From Glaucostegus cemiculus (lineage: Eukaryota): a DNA stretch of 64,000 nt. The stretch spans positions 496,001 through 560,000 of the forward strand of contig CDPCPM010000259.1 of assembly GCA_976551045.1 (NCBI GenBank). Reading direction: 5' to 3'. The translations under genes and the position numbers were made by a program. The notes beneath the pieces were generated by a model. It worked only from the letters and a program-made list of their open reading frames with translations, was not told the origin of the DNA and made no database searches. This document shows positions 7,113 to 31,009 of this stretch, piece after piece. Numbering within the stretch: the stretch's first letter is position 1; every line of letters starts with the position of its first letter.

Positions 7113-8760
7113 ACGTGACCTTATCCGGCGGTGGGAGATGCCAGCTCGGAATCACCGTGATGTCTGAACAAGAGCTGCCCGACCGACTCTGCGCTGACGG
7201 TGACCGGCACCTGGCGGGCGGCGATCCAACCAAAGCCGCTGCCTGTTACAGCGGGGCTTTCAGCAGGGATGCCGAGGTGGCAGTCCGCCACGTACACTCT
7301 CTGGGGGACATCGGCCTGGCCAGCATCGTGGCCGTCCTGGAGGGCTGGTGCGCCGGCCACACGTGGGTGCCGCTCCAGGTTGGGGTCGATCCGGCTGGCG
7401 AGGCTGCCGTGAGCGCCGGGATGGCCGCCCGCTTCCTCTTGCTGTTGGATCCCAGTAACCTGATAGCCTCGGTGCTGAGAGTGGACGCACTGCTGAGGAG
7501 CGGGCAGCACGACGAGGCGGTGAGCCGCTGCAACGCCCTGCTCAACGCGCACCCGAAGCACGCGTTGGGCCTGCTGCTAACCCGGGCCCTGGCCTGGGTC
7601 CTGTCCGACGGGCACTCGGGCAACGGCGTCGTGGACTACCTGCAGGCCTTCGCCAAGCGCCGGGAAGAAACCGTGGCGTTCGTGACCACCAGGCAGACGG
7701 CCGACCTGCCGCGCATCGTCGATGCCTTCAACCACTACGTGTCTCAGCGCCAACAGAGCGCGGAAGGCGACCGCGCCCACGACCGGTTGCTCGGCGACTG
7801 TCGCCGTTTCCTGGCAGCCGTGGCGGCCCCTGACGGCGACGCCCCTCGCGCGCGCGCCGCGCGCCAGATGGCGGGGCGGCGGGTGGAAGAAAGCGCGGGA
7901 AGCGACGGGCCGGCCTCCGGCCTCGCCGGCTCCAGCCCCCAGTACCGGACCTCCGGCCTCATCAGCCGGGCCGCCGCCCACTTCGTCATGGGCAATCACC
8001 TGAGGCAGGTCATTCATGACCTGGCCTCGGCCTTCGAGAACGACCCGGCACTCGCCAGGAAACACTTCGAGCGGCTCTTCTCTCCGCCCGCCGCCCTCCT
8101 CGAGCAGACTAAGTGCTTCATCCAGGACCAACTCGCCGACTACCGGGAGACGGTGCGCCGCCGGCCTGACCTCCGATCGGACGCCGGCGCCGAACTCCTC
8201 CTGCCCGTCCTCGAAGCCCTGCAGCTGCAGATCCACGTCGACGCCCAGGCCGGCCGTGACACCCGGATCCGACTGGCCGACTGCAGGCTTCTGACCGGAG
8301 ACGTCCGCGGCTCCCTCGCACTCTGCCGGAGTCTGGCCTCGTCCGATGGGGCCGCCTACCCCAACACCATCCTGGCCCTCCGCGCCATCTGCCACCTACA
8401 TGCCGGCGATCATGGGCAGGCTCTCGCCGACTTCCAGGCCATCGTGGAGCACGAGTTGCCGCACCCGGACAGCTGCGTTCGGGCCATGTGCGGCCGCGGC
8501 CTGCTGAGGTTACTGGACGGGAAACCCTATCTCGCCACTTTGGACTATATCACTGCTAGCAGGCTGCGGCTGGACGAGACTGCGTTCTTCGTCAAGGCCT
8601 ACGTGCCGTGGAACCAGCGGGGCCTCTTGTACAAGGTGCTTCAGGAGGAAGGGGAGAAGATGGTGCGGAAGAAGCTGTGCTGTCCACCCTCTGGTGCCGG
8701 GCTCCGCAGGAAGGCGGCACAGTCGGGAGACCAGGGCTGGTCCAACAAAGAAAGGTCTGG
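7113..8760. promoter_or_regulatory. CpG-island-like region coinciding with the first coding exon of TTC34
   Basis: Abrupt switch to very high GC and dense CpG (e.g. gcccctcgcgcgcgcgccgcgcgcc) against a CpG-depleted, AT-rich background; flanks at about 6700-7100 and 8800-9150 also keep more CpG. Confidence 0.75.
7160..8754 (+). CDS. TTC34: TTC34 coding exon 1 (MSEQELPDRL...WSNKE, phase 2 end); exon begins at 7113
   Basis: Acceptor tttcttttccAG at 7111-7112, ATG at 7160, donor aag|GTctgg at 8755. Motifs RCNALL, LLLTRALAWVLS, DAGAELLLPV, CVRAMCGRGLLR and KAYVPWNQRGLL match vertebrate TTC34 as I recall it. Confidence 0.92.
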
Positions 8761-15200: not shown

Positions 15201-16232
15201 ATGGATTCTAGTAAGGCATTTGATGAGGTTCCTCATGGAGCTCATTCATTCAGAAAGTCAGGAGGCATGGTATTCAGGGAAACTTGGCTGTGTGGATTCG
15301 GAATTGGCTTGCAGATGGAAGGCAGAGGGTGGCTGTAGATGGAGCACATTCTGCCTAGAGGTCAGTGTTGTGGATAGTGTAGAAGATTGCTGTAGGTTAT
15401 GACAGGCCATTGATAGGATGCAGCACTGGGCTGAGAAGTGGCAGATGGAGTTCAATCCAGAAGAGTGAAGTGATACACCTTGGAAGGTTGAATTTGAAGG
15501 CAGAATACAAGGTTAATGACAGGACTCTTAGCGGTGTGGAGGAACAGAGTGATTTTGGAGTCCATGTCCATAGATTCCTCAAGGTTGCTGTGCAGGTTGC
15601 TAGGGTTGTTCAGAAGGCCTGTGGTGTTTTGGCCTTCATTATTTGGGGTATTGAGTTCAAGAGCCATGAGGTAATGTTGCACCTCTACAAAACTCTGGTT
15701 AGATCACACTTGGAGCATTGTGTTCAGTTCTGGTCACCTCATTATAGGAATGATGTGGAAGCTTTAGAGAGGGTACAGACAAGATTTACTAGAATGCTGC
15801 CTGGATTGGACAGCATGTCTTCTGAGGACTGGTTGAGTGAGCTAGGGCTTTTCTCTTTGGAGTGAAGGAGGATAAGAGGTGACTTGATAGAGGTGTATAA
15901 AGAGGCATAGATTGAGTGGATAGAGAGTCAGAGACTTTTCCCCAGGGCAAAAATTGCTAACACAAATGGGCATAATTTTAAGGTGATTGAAGGAAGGTAT
16001 GGGGGGGATGTCAGAGGTAAGTTTTTTTTTTACAGAGTGGTGAGTGCGTGGAATGCATTGCTGGCAGGGGTGGTGGAGGCAGATACATTCGGGATATTTA
16101 AGAGACTCTTAGGCACGTGAATGATAGAAAAATGGAGGGCTTTGTGGGAGGGAAAGGGTTAGATCGTAGAGTAGGATGAAAAGTCAGCACAACATCTTGG
16201 GCTGAAGGCCCTGTACTGTGCTGTAATGTTCT
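12289..16232 (+). mobile_element. Near full-length CR1 LINE, degraded (5'UTR, ORF1 zinc finger/SGNH esterase, ORF2 APE+RT, 3' tail)
   Basis: ORF1 motifs ELELQLD and VVVHIGTND (about 13018-13045); ORF2 motifs VVVMGDLNFPNIDW, PDDWRVANAVPLFRKG, QHGFMRGR and HLEHCVQFWSPH; tail ggccctgtactgtgctgtaatgttct; atgat on both flanks (12284-12288, 16233-16237). Confidence 0.92.
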
Positions 16233-19301: not shown

Positions 19302-20300
19302 AACATAAAACACTACAGCACAGTACAGGCCCTTCGGCCCACAATGTTTTGCCAACATTTTATCCTGCTCTAAGATCTATCTAACCCTTCCCTCCCACAT
19401 AGCTCCCCATTTCTCTATCATTCATGTGTCTATCTAAGAGTCTCTTAAATGTCCCTAATGTATCTGCCCCCACAACCTCTGCAGGTAGTGTGTTCCACAC
19501 ACCCACCGCTCACTGTGTAAAAAAAAAAAAAAACCCTCCTGACATCTCCCTTATACCTTCCTCCAATCACCTTAAAATTATGTCCCCTCTTGTTAGCCAT
19601 TGTCGTCCTGGGAAAAAGTCTCTGACTGTCCACTTGATCTATGCTTCTTATCATCTTGTACACCTCTATCAAGTCACCCCTCATATTTTAATTTTAATTT
19701 CATAATTTTATTTACAGCATGGTAACAGGCCCTTTCGGCTCAATGAGTCCGCGCCGCCCATTTTAAACCCCCAAATTAACCTACCCGTACGTCTTTCAGA
19801 ATGTGGGAGGAAACCAGAGCACCCGGAGGAAACCCACACAGACACGAGAGAAGGTACAAACTTCTTACAGTCAGCGACGGGAATCGAACCCCAATCGCTG
19901 GCGCTGTAACAGCGTCGCGCTAACCGCTACGCTATTGTGCATCCTCCTCTCCAACGAGAAAAGCCTGAGCTCACTCAACCTATCCTCATAAGACGTGCTC
20001 TCCAGTCCAGGCAACATCCTGGTAAATCTCATCTTCACCCTCTCTGAAGATTCCACATCCTTCCTATGAGGCAACCAGAACTGAACACAATTCTCCAAGT
20101 GTGGTCTAACCAGAATTCTATAGAGCTGCAACATTACCTCATGGCTCTTGAACTCCATACCCCGACTAATGAAGGCCAACTCTCCATATGGCTTCTTAAC
20201 CCTATCGACCTGCGTGGCAACCTTGAGGGCTCTCTGGACCTGGACCCCAAGATCCTTCTGTTCCTCCACACTGCTAAGAGTCCTGCCATTAACCTTGCCT
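19302..20300 (-). mobile_element. 5'-truncated CR1, same subfamily as 12289-16232, interrupted by a SINE
   Basis: Minus ORFs KVNGRTLSSVEEQKDLGVQV, RPHLENCVQFW and MRGDLIEVYKM; reverse complement of about 15505-16235; possible tctt duplication at 19298-19301 and 20301-20304. Confidence 0.9.
19685..19940 (-). mobile_element. Young tRNA-derived V-SINE (HE1-like)
   Basis: On the minus strand: A box tagcgtagcgg, perfect B box ggttcgattccc (19879-19890), V domain gggtttcctccgggtgctctggtttcctcccaca and AT-rich tail; CpGs largely intact. Confidence 0.88.
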
Positions 20301-20862
20301 TCTTGAAACACTTAAGGTTGAGAAATCTTGACAGGGTTGAGGCTGAAGGAATGTTTCTCCCCAAGTGTCTGAAGAGAAAGGTAGAGGGACTAATCTACAA
20401 CTAGGGGTCATAGTTTCAAAATAAGGGGTTATCTATTTAAGATGGAGCTGATGAGGACTTACTTCTGAAGGTTGTGAACATTTGGAGTTTCTGCTCCAGA
20501 AAACTGTTATTGAATCAAGGCAGAAATTTTTCGACAAGTGAAGTTGAGGATTATGGAGTTGAGGCCAAGATCTTTTTGAATAATGGAAAAGGCTTAAGGC
20601 AGCATATGACCTACCCATGTTAGGAGCTGATGTACCCAACTAAGTGGGTTGTGTGCTTATTCTAATCAAACATTTGGTTGGATTTGTGCTGTTCCAGTCC
20701 AGCTCAGTCCTCTATTGTGACAGAATAATTTGCTTAATCTTACTGTATTGACTACTTTTTCCACAAGTGCATGGAAAAATTAATTGCCTGGCTGGAGTTG
20801 AGTTCTGATTGTAATCAGCTCTAATTTTATCCTTTTGATAGTTTCTGTTTTTGTCAATTCTC

Positions 20863-22434: not shown

Positions 22435-23402
22435 GGGTGACAGCTTAAAGTTCCTAGGTGTAAATATCACCAACAATTTGTCCTGATCCAGCCATGTGGA
22501 CACTGTGGCCAAGAAAGCACCCCAATGCTTCTATTTCCTCAGAAGGCTAAAGAAATTCAGCATGTCCCCAATGATTTTCAACAATTTTTACAGATGCAAC
22601 ACAGAAAGCATCCTATTTGGATGGATCACAGCTTGGAATAGCAACTGCCCTGTCCAAGACTTCAAGAAATTGCAGAGTTGTGAACTTGGCCCACTCCATC
22701 ACGCAAAACACCCTCCCCTCCATTGACTCTGTCTACACTTCCTGTTGCCTTAGGAAGGCAGCCAACATAATCAAGGACCCCTCTCACCCTGGTCATTCTC
22801 TCTTCTCCCCCTCCCATCAGGCAGAAGATACAAAAGTTTAAGAATACATTCCACCAGACCCAAGGATATCTTCTGTCCCACTGTTATCAGACTCTCGAAT
22901 AGACCTTTCTTGCACTAAAAGATGAACTCTCTTGATCTCTCAGTCTATTTGGGGGCGGCATGATAGCGTAGCGGTTAGCGCGACGCTGTTACAGCGCCAG
23001 CGATTGGGGTTTGATTCCCGTCGCTGACTGTAAGGAGTTTGTACGTTCTCCTGTGTCTGCGTGGGTTTCCTCCGGGTGCTCCGGTTTCCACCCACATTCT
23101 AAAAGATGTACGAGTAGGTTAATTTGGGGGTTTAAAAATGGGCGGCGCGGACTCGTTGGGCAGAAAGGGCCTGTTACCACCCTGTAAATAAAATTTAAAA
23201 AATTTTATCTTGTCATGGCCCTTGCATTTTATTTGTCAATCTGCACTGCACTTTCTCTGTAACTGCAACACTATTCTGCATTCTGTTTTACCTTTTTATA
23301 CTACTTTGAGGTACTTGTGCATGGAATGGTCTGTCTGGATGGCATATAAACACAAACATTTTACTGTATCCTGGTATATGTGACAGTAAACAAATTACCA
23401 AT
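22435..23402 (+). mobile_element. Rex1/Babar-like LINE 3' part, interrupted by a SINE at 22951-23206
   Basis: KFLGVNITNNL, KKAPQCFYFLRRLKKF, NFYRCNTESIL and IIKDPSHPGHSLF are characteristic of the Rex/Babar RT C-terminus; the 3'UTR resumes at 23207. Confidence 0.82.
22951..23206 (+). mobile_element. Young full-length tRNA-derived V-SINE (HE1-like)
   Basis: ggggcggc start, A box tagcgtagcgg (22964-22974), B box ggtttgattccc, V domain gcgtgggtttcctccgggtgctccggtttcc and tail taaataaaatttaaaaaattt. Confidence 0.9.
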
Positions 23403-26522: not shown

Positions 26523-27603
26523 TGTGTAAAAACATCCAGCCTTAGTGATGTTTTTCTATTAAAATATCTCATGAAGCTCTGTTTGCCAGAAGAAATATTT
26601 GACTGCCAATTATGCATAGATTGTTTTGAGTATCGACTGTCTGCACCCCACATCAGATGACATGGGTAAAGACAAATAAGGTTCCTTTTACTCTGCATCA
26701 ATAAAATAATTCAACCCCAACATTTAGAGTGCCATTCTGCACCACTGAGGTGTTTCTTCCACACTGCAACGGTGCCCATTGGTGCATTCCTGCAAATTTG
26801 TCCTCATTCTTAATGGAAATTTAAACTTATCCTTGCTGGCTGCAACGGCTTAATACATTTGTATTTAATCATTCTTCAGATTGTGCCAGGGTCCTTTCAT
26901 GTCCACCTATACTTTAATTTTGGTTTTAAATTGACAATAGATTAACTTAACATTTTTATCCTTTTTATTTGAAAAGGAACATGGAAACAGGATTTCAATG
27001 TTCAAGTTCCTGTCCAAGGATTGATTATGTGTACATTCAATCTCTGGTATTTTTTTAATGCATATTTCAAATTTTGAGATTCCATCTGAATGAAAGAACA
27101 TCACCAGATATATACCTTTTTTTGAGGAAGAATTGGATAGGGATTTTTGTTGAAAGTAAAAGGTGTATAACACTAATTGCTTCATTGCAAGCAGTTTTCA
27201 CAGCATTTGTTGTGTCAGCTGTCTGATTTTTTTAAACTATTCTTTAGCTCATTGGGATAGGATTTGAACTCTTGAGGCTAAATGTGAGATTGTAAATATC
27301 TTTATGAACTATTTGCATAACTTTATTAAAATCTTCAGGCAGATACGTAAATCATAGAGAAAGGACAAACAATAAGGCCCCTCTTCCTCTTGTGTTTCAC
27401 CAATTCAATAAAGTTGGGGATGTATCTGAAGGAAAGACAGTGGGGTACAAGAGATTATGAGATTAAAATAATTTCTAGGCACTGGGACTAGCCAGGTAGT
27501 TCATAGTGATCTTTTCAGATCCTGAAAAGCTGCTATTTTGGTAAACGTGTATGAATTAGTCTCTCTCCAGTCCTTGAGGTCTGTGTTTTCTTTATTTTTC
27601 TAG

Positions 27604-27796
27604 TTAATAAAGAAAATTCTTGAGATTGGAGATACCTCCTGTCTTCTGCCCATAATGGACATCTTTAAAGCAGAAGATCGAGACCTACTGCAGCAACATT
27701 GTTATTCCAGTGCCATGTCAATCCTACAAAATAAAGAAGGAGATACATATGTAAAGGAAGCAGTGGCCTATCTGTCTTTGGCTATCATAACATCAG
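27604..27796 (+). CDS. TTC34: TTC34 coding exon 3 (193 nt; LIKKILEIGDTSCLLPIMDIFKAEDR...AYLSLAIITS)
   Basis: Not in the ORF track; translated by hand. Acceptor tttatttttctAG (27602-27603), donor cag|GTtagt (27797); phases 0/1 fit; matches TTC34 GDTxCL..EDR..HC..EAxAYLSLAI. Confidence 0.95.
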
Positions 27797-28261
27797 GTTA
27801 GTGGCAGCTGTATGATTTTTTTCTTTTAAAAAGAACAAAACTTTAAGTATTAACCAAGTCCCAATCTAAGTATGACTGAGGTGGGGGCCGGTGTCTGGCA
27901 ATGGGGACGAAAATTCATTAATCCAAGAATTCTTCAGGATTTTAAAGCAGAGTGGAAACTTAAGGATCCACAATGCAGGTAGTTCAACCAGTCCAATAAC
28001 TGTTGAGTCTTAAGTGACCAGTTTATCTTGTAGCCTACTTGGAAATGTGGCATCTGTGCTATTTTTTTAATCTTGGTCACTGTAAATTAGTGTAATAATG
28101 CATTTTGAAAACATTAGCACTGAAGTGACCATTCATCCCCTTGATTTAACCACTGTTCAATTGGTTCAAGACTGAATTATCTAAAGCTAATCAAGAGTTA
28201 TTTGACTTGAGGGACTGAGTAAAAATTGGACAGGCTAGGATCACTTTTCCATCGAGTGTAG

Positions 28262-28779
28262 TGTTGACCCTTCCTTGGTCAACCAACTTAGGTTAGGTGA
28301 ATAACCACACAAAAAATAATTAATTCAAACTACTCACAACTTTAATGTATCAACTTATGATATCAAGTGCAAATATCCATCTAATTCCTGAATTCCTTTG
28401 GACCAATACTCACCCAAACCCACTTTCACCAAAATACAGGATATCCTGTTGGCCAACCAACTGATCCTCCTTGCCCCAGGCACAGTGGTCTTCCTTGTGA
28501 TGGTTGGTTTCCCCCTCGCCCCCTAGAGTCCCCGCTTGTTAGTCTTCAGAGACCTCACCCTACCTCTGAAAACCTTCGTTATTATAATTATCAGTTCTGC
28601 ACTGTTCTACTTTGATTCTGTTGGCTTTGACACATCTGACCATCCTGTGTCCACCCCCTCATTGGCTCTGGCCCAAGGCTACAGGTGCCACCCCTTCACT
28701 GCATACCTCCGATGTCATTTCTTCATTTTTGCTGAATTAGACCATTTCACACTAATTGTAGCCAGTTCAAATCAGACAC
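28262..28779 (-). mobile_element. Candidate solo LTR inside a CR1 3' fragment (CR1 pieces at about 28195-28261 and 28907-29100)
   Basis: TGT...ACA ends; on the minus strand CCAAT (about 28662), a TATA-like site (about 28582) and ATTAAA (about 28341) occur in LTR order; no target-site duplication seen. Confidence 0.35.
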
Positions 28780-31009
28780 TGGACTCGAGTCACTCCAGTT
28801 CATGGACACGGACTACTCTTCTTATAAGTCCGTTTATGGGCAGAAGACGGGAGGTTCTCCCTGTTTTGGTGAAAGTGAGTTCGGGTGAGTATTGGTCCTG
28901 TACACAGAATGAGCTGTCATAGGAGGTGAGTGAGGCAGATATAATAAGTTTTAAAAGACTGCTGGCTGGGTACATGGATAGGAATGGTTTAGAAGGAGAT
29001 GGGCCAAATGCGGGCAAACGCGACTAGCCTGGATGGGCATCATGGTCAACATGAAACAGTTTGGCCAAAGGTCCTGTTTCCATGCTGTATGACTCTATTT
29101 GTCCCAGATTCCACAGCCTTGAAGGGGTATGGAATTCTTAGTTTTTATCACCCTTACTGCAGAAGGCGTGCTTCCTCATTTCCCTTCTGAATGGCTTAGT
29201 TACTGGTTTAAGAAATATGCTGCCATTTTTTTTAAATTCCTTCTATGAGTGGAATTTGAAAATCATTTTGAGATGTAAACTGCTTGTAAGCCGCTTTAAG
29301 TAACTCCAAGAGCACAATTTATTGAAAGAACTACCAAAAACTCCATTCAGTATTTTAAAAAGTAACCATGTACGAAATAATGCCACCAACCCTGGAAGAT
29401 CTCAGCTTAATTTCCCGGTTTTTGAGTCTGGTGCTTTAAGCTTGGGGCTGTGGTTGCCATTAGAGCCCTCTGCTCAGGAAGAGAAATTACCAAGAGCTCC
29501 TACAGCTAAATAATTTCTCATGTTTCCTCTTAGAAAGTTTATGCATGCATATTTTGGGCAAGGACAAAGTGGAATGTTTTCTTGTTCTTTTCTATCCATA
29601 ATGTAGTACTTACTATGGTTCTACATGTAGGCTGACTCCAATGTGTTTTTGAATTTCCTGTGTCATATCCCATACCTATTAGTTTGAAGAGTTTAGGCCT
29701 TGGATTTTTTGAGTAATAGGTTTTGTTCCAAATAATCTTTTATGCTATTTAAGATTATGTTTATAGGTAGTTCATGTAGTACTTGATGTCAAAACTTGTC
29801 AGTGAATTAGGACACACTGCCGAAAAGCCCATCCATACACTTGTCACCTCCCAGCCTTTTCCAGTATCTTTCCAATATCAAGTACTACTCTTCAGAAACT
29901 TAACTTGAAAAAGCAATGCTGTCCACACTTGTTGTCACTTTCCTTGTCAATTTCTACTGAAACCCCCATTCTTCATTGGCTTAAACTTTTCAAATTCCCT
30001 CTGTCAGCAAGATTGGGAAAAATTCTCCTTCCCAAATGTGTTGCCTCATTTGCTTAAGTGAGAGCAGAAACATTGCAAGATCCAATATGAACATATGGAA
30101 AATTTCTACTTGGAGCAACGATATGATTTAATGGAGAGTACTTAGAGTGGCTCTTATCTATTATTTTTGGACACAAAGGAGATCTGCTTTCCAGCTCTCC
30201 AAAGCAAAAAGAGCATTGATCTGTAAACAAGAGTTAGAGAATTCCAGTGTCATGAGTGCACATGATTCTTAACCAATGTTTTCCTATTTGCTGTGTTCCA
30301 TTCAGAACATTGCCCTTGAAAATGTTTGCCTGAAGCTTTCTTTCCAGGCTATTGGTGTCCTGTGGGAGTTGTATTTTAATTTAAACTCTAATTCAGTCAT
30401 TTGGTAGTTATTTTAAATCATGTCCAGGTAATATTTTTGACCTTTAACATCACTTTATTGTTATAACCCATGCTTAATGCTACATTCAAGGCTGGCTATC
30501 TTGAGTGTGTAATGAGGCATGCGATTTCAAAGTCAAGCAGCAATGACAAACCTACCATCCAGGAAACCTGGAAGAGGAGCAATATCAAGATGGCTGTTGA
30601 TAAATTTGGTACTTCATATGGACGTGGGGTGAGGGATGATGGGCAGAAGGATCCAAGTGGAGGAGTGGGAGAGCTCCCTCCTGCCCCACACTACCTGGCT
30701 TCATCTGCCCTTTTTTGTCTTTGACTGCTTCCAACTGTCTTTGTCTCTCAATTCCACCCCTCCCACGTCTGGCTCCTTCTGCCCATCATCCCTCACCCTT
30801 GGTCCACCTATCACTTACCAGGTCCTGTCTAATTCCTTACCCTCTCCTCTTTATACCAACTATCTTCCCTAAATCCTGTTGCAGCGTCTCAACCCAAATC
30901 ATTGACAATTCCTTCCTTCCCCTCCTTCCACATCCCCGCCCCCCCCCCCACCCACCCAACAGATCAGCTCAACCCCTGAATTCCTCCAGCAGTTTTTTTC
31001 CTGCAGGGA

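What the first reader, a model, noticed from the sequence alone, without database searches (positions are those of the whole stretch)
27628..28860. Intronic antisense copy of 33 nt of TTC34 coding exon 3, 1.2 kb downstream
Seen: the reverse complement of 28828-28860 (ggagaacctcccgtcttctgcccataaacggac) matches exon 27628-27660 (ggagatacctcctgtcttctgcccataatggac). There is a 15-nt perfect core, two single-base gaps and two substitutions, both of which become G-U wobbles in an RNA duplex. Inference: the pre-mRNA can pair exon with intron, the geometry of an editing-complementary sequence or an exon-masking stem. It begins 24 nt from the acceptor, and skipping the 193-nt exon would frameshift. It probably arose as a repair by-product; any function is untested.
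Basis: partly seen in the sequence, partly recalled or inferred. Interest (0 to 1): 0.7.

Follow-up and report, generated by a model that had tools for sequence, protein, structure and literature searches.

The report
Old DNA-copying scar inside TTC34 intron
A 27-letter backwards copy of a TTC34 coding exon lies 1.2 kb downstream at the broken end of a repeat in the intron; it is most likely an old DNA-repair copying accident, shared with related rays, and no effect on RNA editing or splicing has been shown.

Summary
The match is real: 27 intronic nt (28834-28860) against 28 exon nt, two edits. It is the exon 22-mer's only match with at most one mismatch in the 2.85-Gb genome. The other 6 nt of the '33-nt copy' belong to an LTR-like repeat. 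That repeat (28262-28835) lacks its last ~250 bp, and the LINE-like host lacks ~170 bp. The gap holds two inverted local copies: the exon piece and 38 nt of the repeat's own 28400-28434 arm. This is the anatomy of a complex templated insertion (MMBIR/FoSTeS or snap-back), likely neutral. Two related species share the junction. Their one change in the segment breaks a G-C pair in the core, opposite an invariant Pro codon. Conservation is not significantly above the flanks (1/27 vs 12/109, p=0.22). The duplex is strong alone (-49 to -57 kcal/mol), but in a nested fold the adjacent repeat-arm duplex excludes it once transcribed. None of 51 homologues carries the residues editing would make. Editing and skipping remain untested: no RNA read covered the site. 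The scan noted a similar inverted exon copy in another genome (unchecked).

The parts
27604..27796 (+). TTC34 coding exon 3, 193 nt, phase 0 to 1
   Evidence: tblastn 100% to P0001 over 65 aa; AG/GT ends, length mod 3 = 1
27628..27655 (+). Exon stretch that was the likely template (codons GDTSCLLPI)
   Evidence: 28-nt alignment with 1 substitution and 1 gap; T,S,C,L,L,P,I invariant in 51 of 51 homologues
28168..28261 (+). 5' piece of a LINE-like host repeat into which the LTR-like element inserted
   Evidence: depth rise in relatives' contigs; aligns 167-178 nt upstream of the 3' piece in 2 of 18 copies, above all 200 shuffles; the CR1-like label is recalled
28262..28835 (+). LTR-like dispersed repeat, 3'-truncated; other copies are 773-866 bp with TG..CA-type ends and 4-bp target duplications; class (Gypsy, ERV or other) unresolved
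   Evidence: 41 matches besides itself (40 elsewhere, 1 its own inverted arm) from 40 scored of 230 candidates; ends and TSDs
28400..28449 (+). Template of the second inverted piece (35-nt arm) followed by a 14-nt perfect palindrome at 28436-28449
28808..28833 (+). 7-bp local hairpin of the repeat; three changes seen only in the window (28810, 28829, 28831) perfect it and, as a side effect, lengthen the exon match by 6 nt
   Evidence: sequence; ortholog letters
28834..28860 (-). Inverted copy of exon 27628-27655 (first filler piece)
   Evidence: 2 edits to the exon vs 6-10 for any two-piece repeat origin; present in two relatives with 1 difference
28861..28898 (-). Inverted copy of the repeat's own arm (second filler piece)
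   Evidence: 35 nt at 94%; family hits at 28859-28898
28899..29098 (+). 3' piece of the LINE/SINE-like host repeat, resuming after the deletion
   Evidence: 18 hits among 53 sequences; very high depth

Best explanation
The segment is an inverted 27-nt match to TTC34 exon 3 that sits, beside a second inverted piece, at the truncated end of a repeat; it is most likely a complex templated insertion made during repair of a ~0.4-kb deletion, and likely neutral. Shown: the element is 3'-truncated, two inverted pieces fill the junction, and the junction is shared with two relatives. Inferred order: an LTR-like element inserted into a LINE-like repeat. A break or stalled fork then left a top-strand 3' end at about 28835. 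This end primed on exon 3 with 2 nt of microhomology and copied 27-28 nt. It switched at the element's palindrome (2 nt plus looser likeness), copied ~38 nt, and rejoined ~420 bp further on. Both templates are upstream and on the same strand, as in snap-back on a long single-stranded tail or in fork template switching (MMBIR/FoSTeS). The exon:intron RNA duplex would then be a by-product. It is predicted to form only while the transcript ends between about 28860 and 28880, and in nested folds it is then displaced by the repeat-arm duplex.
For: The only genome-wide match of the exon 22-mer with at most 1 mismatch lies 1.2 kb away. Edit distance of the 27-mer: exon 2; two inverted pieces of the element 6-10 in 18 of 18 copies; fetched copies of the high-copy motif 6-8. 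The element's 3' part (249-264 bp in four copies) is absent from the window. The host repeat lacks 167-178 nt. A second inverted local copy is directly adjacent. Ortholog contigs bridge the junction in 3 of 4 runs. The only ortholog difference in the segment, 28840 G>T, breaks a core G-C pair opposite a Pro codon invariant in 51 of 51 homologues. One CpG at 28867-68 decayed differently in the two lineages. P(exon:segment pairing) is 0.00 in two full-context folds. Complex multi-template insertions occur as germline variants, 33 and 26 in two people (PMC8421209 section 10).
Against: The segment changed less than its flanks (1/27 vs 12/109 and 13/109), though not significantly (p 0.22 and 0.19), and the two relatives look like one lineage. 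The duplex remains strong with the relatives' mismatch modelled as unpaired (-46 to -49). Exact junction microhomologies are only 2 nt, and the third junction is unresolved. The element's own next ~13 nt resemble the inverted piece exactly in place, and the core is 3 of 20 letters from a motif with 1102 exact-pattern matches; both are coincidences on this reading. Nested folding cannot model the two helices as a pseudoknot, so coexistence is not excluded. The pre-deletion allele was not observed.
Confidence: 0.77

Rival explanations
1. Same origin, but the copy has been co-opted: it pairs with exon 3 during transcription and directs ADAR recoding or promotes frameshifting skipping.
For: Duplex of -49 to -57 kcal/mol; pairing probability about 1.0 in transcripts ending at 28862 or 28880; kept with 1 change in 27 nt; strong human pairings (< -30 kcal/mol) are enriched in editing sites (PMC8052449 passages).
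Against: Uncompensated core mismatch in the relatives; conservation not significant; excluded by the crossing arm duplex in nested folds; 0 of 51 homologues carry any of the six recoded residues; far stronger intronic duplexes in the same gene (-432 and -542).
Confidence: 0.06
2. Both filler pieces come from the element itself (an in-place inversion of its next ~13 nt plus an inversion of its palindrome and arm), and the exon match is chance.
For: A 9-nt word of the core is the element's next sequence at exactly this point in most copies; the second piece is certainly element-derived; in-place inversions are a known class.
Against: Needs 6-10 edits against 2, while the two arms differ at only 2 of 35 positions; leaves the genome's best exon match at 1.2 kb unexplained.
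Confidence: 0.08
3. The core is a captured 20-nt scrap of a very abundant LINE-like repeat that happens to resemble the exon.
For: 24 other matches at 2 or fewer mismatches vs 3 controls, 20 of the 23 fetched being one family by eye; 1102 exact matches of the degenerate motif.
Against: No family flank on either side; the commonest form (85 of 100 listed) differs at 3 of 20 positions, and none listed has both exon-type letters; 6-8 edits over the 27-mer.
Confidence: 0.05
4. The filler was copied from the nascent TTC34 pre-mRNA (RNA-templated repair), since both pieces are antisense to the transcript.
For: The orientation of both pieces fits.
Against: Fold-back on top-strand DNA predicts the same orientation; the copy crosses no splice junction, so nothing points to RNA.
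Confidence: 0.04

Closest known systems
Complex MMBIR templated insertions (MMB-TI; Osia et al. 2021, PMC8421209; passages and section 10 part 1 read)
   Same: Several nearby templates copied in series, inverted copies, microhomology or microhomeology at the junctions, germline persistence.
   Different: Inferred from repeat copies and two relatives, not from a ref/alt pair; comes with a ~0.4-kb deletion; fixed across species.
Pol theta TINS and snap-back SD-MMEJ (PMC7165422, PMC5728401; passages read)
   Same: Deletion with inverted, locally templated filler; repeated rounds of priming on short microhomology.
   Different: There the templates lie typically within 30 bp and tracts are rarely over 10 bp; here templates are 0.4 and 1.2 kb away, with tracts of 27 and 38 nt.
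Four-point template switch (Loytynoja and Goldman 2017, PMC5453318; abstract and outline read)
   Same: Short inversions and apparent compensatory changes without selection; fits the three linked changes in the 28808-28833 hairpin.
   Different: The filler needs at least two switches and kilobase jumps.
Editing-complementary sequences (PMC4053966 passages; GRIA2 Q/R example recalled)
   Same: Imperfect exon:downstream-intron duplex of about 27 bp at about 1 kb.
   Different: No editing shown, no significant conservation, uncompensated mismatch, embedded in a lineage-restricted repeat.
Conserved complementary regions (PCCR; PMC8052449 passages)
   Same: Long-range pairing below -15 kcal/mol within 10 kb.
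   Different: PCCRs pair conserved intronic regions and are supported by compensatory changes; neither holds here.

Membership tests
Complex templated insertion (MMB-TI/FoSTeS type) | Inserted sequence matches nearby templates | tested here: met
   exon piece 2 edits, unique best match in the genome; arm 33 of 35
Complex templated insertion (MMB-TI/FoSTeS type) | Two or more template switches in series at one junction | tested here: met
   adjacent pieces 28834-28860 and 28861-28898; element and host truncated
Complex templated insertion (MMB-TI/FoSTeS type) | Microhomology at the junctions | tested here: inconclusive
   2 nt at each of the first two junctions (28834-35, 28859-60); third junction unresolved
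Complex templated insertion (MMB-TI/FoSTeS type) | Allele without the insertion observed | not testable with these tools
   both relatives carry it; the earlier state is inferred from other copies
Pol theta TINS / SD-MMEJ | Template within ~30 bp, tract about 10 nt or less | tested here: not met
   distances 0.4 and 1.2 kb, tracts 27 and 38 nt
Editing-complementary sequence | Can form an imperfect duplex with the exon | tested here: inconclusive
   yes alone and in short transcripts; no in nested full-context folds
Editing-complementary sequence | High conservation or compensatory change | tested here: not met
   1 uncompensated mismatch; p=0.19-0.22 vs flanks; low power
Editing-complementary sequence | A-to-I editing of the paired exon | not tested
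   both read-laying runs went to the DNA question; no RNA was laid on the exon
Splicing-regulatory long-range pairing (PCCR type) | Effect on exon inclusion | not tested
   no junction reads examined
Solo LTR (for 28262-28835) | TG..CA ends, short terminal inverted repeat, 4-5 bp target duplication | tested here: met
   8 of 12 copies with both ends match at 3 or 4 of 4 flanking bases, 1 at 2, 3 at 0
Solo LTR (for 28262-28835) | Parent element with gag/pol between two LTRs | tested here: inconclusive
   two copies share ~2 kb upstream with no Pfam hit; no paired LTR in the two 10-kb stretches

The most novel reading that the evidence does not exclude
A repair scar gave birth to a working exon-complementary element in one ray lineage: the 27-nt copy pairs with TTC34 exon 3 only while polymerase is within some tens of nt past it, and the repeat-arm helix made by the same event then releases it, giving a transient, speed-dependent switch for ADAR recoding or frameshifting exon skipping.
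Probability: 0.05. Interest if true: 0.65.

Novelty: new member of a known kind. Interest (0 to 1): 0.17.

Why it matters
As read here it matters little: it is one more germline templated insertion, tidy because both templates and the deletion can be traced in a cartilaginous fish. If it did steer editing or splicing, it would be a dated example of an ECS or exon mask arising in one step from repair, with a relative's natural mismatch as a control.

Tried and rejected
MITE reading of the 35-nt inverted arms: rejected, because the left arm is internal to a longer element in other copies and no copy examined has the right arm. Segment as part of the element family: no copy of 18 holds it. Exact 15-mer search: 8 other places vs 2 controls, uninformative. 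No RNA holder was listed. RNA runs X15 and X16 (a related species) gave 3 and 1 reads, all on the repeat arm and none on 28834-28858. Run X11 covered only 16 of 30 bins and did not bridge the site. Rfam 27000-30000: 0 matches. The genome search with the left host piece found only itself, and BLAST of it against 53 held sequences found 0; only anchored alignment gave support, in 2 of 18 copies. Classifying the element by Pfam failed: the RT hits lie 5-7 kb upstream, beyond a GPCR gene. TTC34 literature: 96 papers hold the term; of the 25 listed (titles and abstract starts only) none concerns editing, RNA structure or sharks and rays. No nearby scan notes. No supplements were read.

Full report
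Observation. The reverse complement of 28828-28860 aligns to 27628-27660 with a 15-nt core, two gaps and two substitutions; the best local alignment is 28 nt, E 5.7e-5 in the window. The exon is 27604-27796 (193 nt), the third of seven coding blocks of TTC34. Its peptide is 100% identical to the Pristis pectinata TTC34-like protein, so the genome is likely a ray of that group (inference). The match beats 2000 of 2000 shuffles and the other 61 of 62 strand-tiles of the window, scoring 42 vs at most 27. Genome-wide, the exon 22-mer has one match with 1 mismatch, this one, and 11 with 2. The chance that the single best match falls within 1.5 kb is about one in a million (3 kb over 2.85 Gb).

Anatomy. 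28262-28835 is a dispersed repeat: 41 matches besides itself from 40 scored of 230 candidates. In 12 of 18 copies both ends were found; these are 773-866 bp, with TG..CA-type ends, and 8 of the 12 have 3 or 4 of 4 flanking bases duplicated. It is solo-LTR-like. Its class is unresolved: two copies share ~2 kb upstream with no Pfam hit. The window copy stops ~250 bp short, and that part is nowhere in the window. The element lies inside a LINE-like repeat whose two pieces (28168-28261, 28899-29098) are 167-178 nt apart in 2 of 18 copies tested (the other 16 gave no clear support). The gap holds 28834-28860, the inverted exon piece, and 28861-28898, an inverted copy of the element's own arm (33 of 35). 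So about 420 bp are replaced by 65 nt of two inverted, upstream, same-strand templates.

Source of the 27 nt. The exon needs 2 edits. Two inverted pieces of the element need 6-10 edits in 18 of 18 copies, although a 9-nt word of the core does follow in place in most copies. The core also resembles an abundant repeat: 24 other hits vs 3 controls and 1102 matches of the degenerate motif. But its commonest form differs at 3 of 20 positions, no flank is shared, and fetched copies need 6-8 edits. Two unrelated loci reach 3 and 4 edits, which shows the genome-wide chance floor. The exon is the best source, with the two rivals at 8% and 5%.

Relatives. Contigs of two coded species, about 4.6% diverged over 27400-28307 (41 of 900), bridge the junction in 3 of 4 runs, so the event predates the split. 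The two share most differences and count as roughly one lineage. Over 28780-28915 they differ at 13 and 14 of 136 positions with no gaps, and at one position, 28840 G>T, within the segment. That change breaks a core G-C pair. Its partner is the first base of a Pro codon invariant in 51 of 51 homologues, and no exon change was listed there (172 rows were not shown). One change in 27 against 12 or 13 in 109 is not significant (p 0.22, 0.19); power is low, and the direction does favour constraint. Relatives differ at 28829 and 28831, as other repeat copies do, so the first 6 nt of the '33-nt copy' are repeat sequence. In the window these two changes and 28810 perfect a 7-bp local hairpin, the pattern that template switching produces without selection (PMC5453318, abstract; applying it here is inference).

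RNA. The duplex alone is -56.5 (33/33) or -49.2 (28/27) kcal/mol, and the arm duplex -60.0. The two cross. In nested folds of 27560-28960 and 27400-29100 the exon:segment pairing probability is 0.0; it is about 1.0 if the transcript ends at 28862 or 28880, or if the left arm is blocked. A pseudoknot holding both was not modelled. Six of seven exon adenosines in the arm would recode (D>G, T>A, I>V, I>M, M>V, D>G), and 0 of 51 homologues carry these residues. Inverted repeats in intron 2 give -432 and -542 kcal/mol, so this is not the gene's main double-stranded RNA. Editing and skipping were not measured.

Mechanism and comparison. The anatomy matches the complex class of MMBIR templated insertions, found as germline variants at 33 and 26 per person among calls of 25 bp or more (PMC8421209, passages and section 10 part 1). 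It works like snap-back SD-MMEJ (PMC5728401, passages) but fails the short-range criterion of Pol theta insertions, typically within 30 bp and rarely over 10 bp (PMC7165422, passages). ECSs are described as highly conserved intronic elements (PMC4053966, passages) and PCCRs as conserved pairs with compensatory changes (PMC8052449, passages); neither feature is met. Shown: match, truncation, two-piece filler, sharing, mismatch. Inferred: order of switches, enzyme, neutrality.

Verdict. A real, non-chance inverted exon copy of 27 nt, best read as an old templated-insertion scar: a new member of a known kind, interest 0.17. Co-option as a transient editing or splicing element is not excluded (5%, interest 0.65 if true). 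Earlier scan notes describe similar cases in other genomes; they are unchecked and not counted as support.

Noticed in passing
window 15502-15873 / 19941-20303 and 19704-19935 / 22963-23195: Long inverted repeat pairs in TTC34 intron 2 (83% over 372 nt, 93% over 233 nt; -542 and -432 kcal/mol), likelier ADAR substrates than the finding.
   Followed up: partly
window 30619-30668 / 30757-30806: 50-nt inverted arms 88 nt apart (-78.5 kcal/mol), MITE-like; each arm has a 13-of-14 match to the same exon stretch.
   Followed up: no
window 28436-28449: Perfect 14-nt palindrome where other copies of the repeat have an imperfect one; possibly a separate template-switch correction.
   Followed up: partly
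L058:7938-9670 and L059:400-3190: About 2 kb shared upstream of two copies of the LTR-like element (72-76%), no Pfam hit; candidate internal region of the parent element.
   Followed up: partly
L058:3907-5097 (+): 397-codon open stretch with a rhodopsin-family GPCR domain (E 1.6e-18); frameshifted RT fragments at 1318-2957.
   Followed up: no
L024, L026, L030: Three loci on different contigs with near-identical flanks around the 15-mer: a young repeat or segmental duplication.
   Followed up: no
P0001 vs window 7160-7987: The Pristis pectinata TTC34-like record (786 aa) lacks about 280 N-terminal residues that other homologues align to in the window.
   Followed up: no
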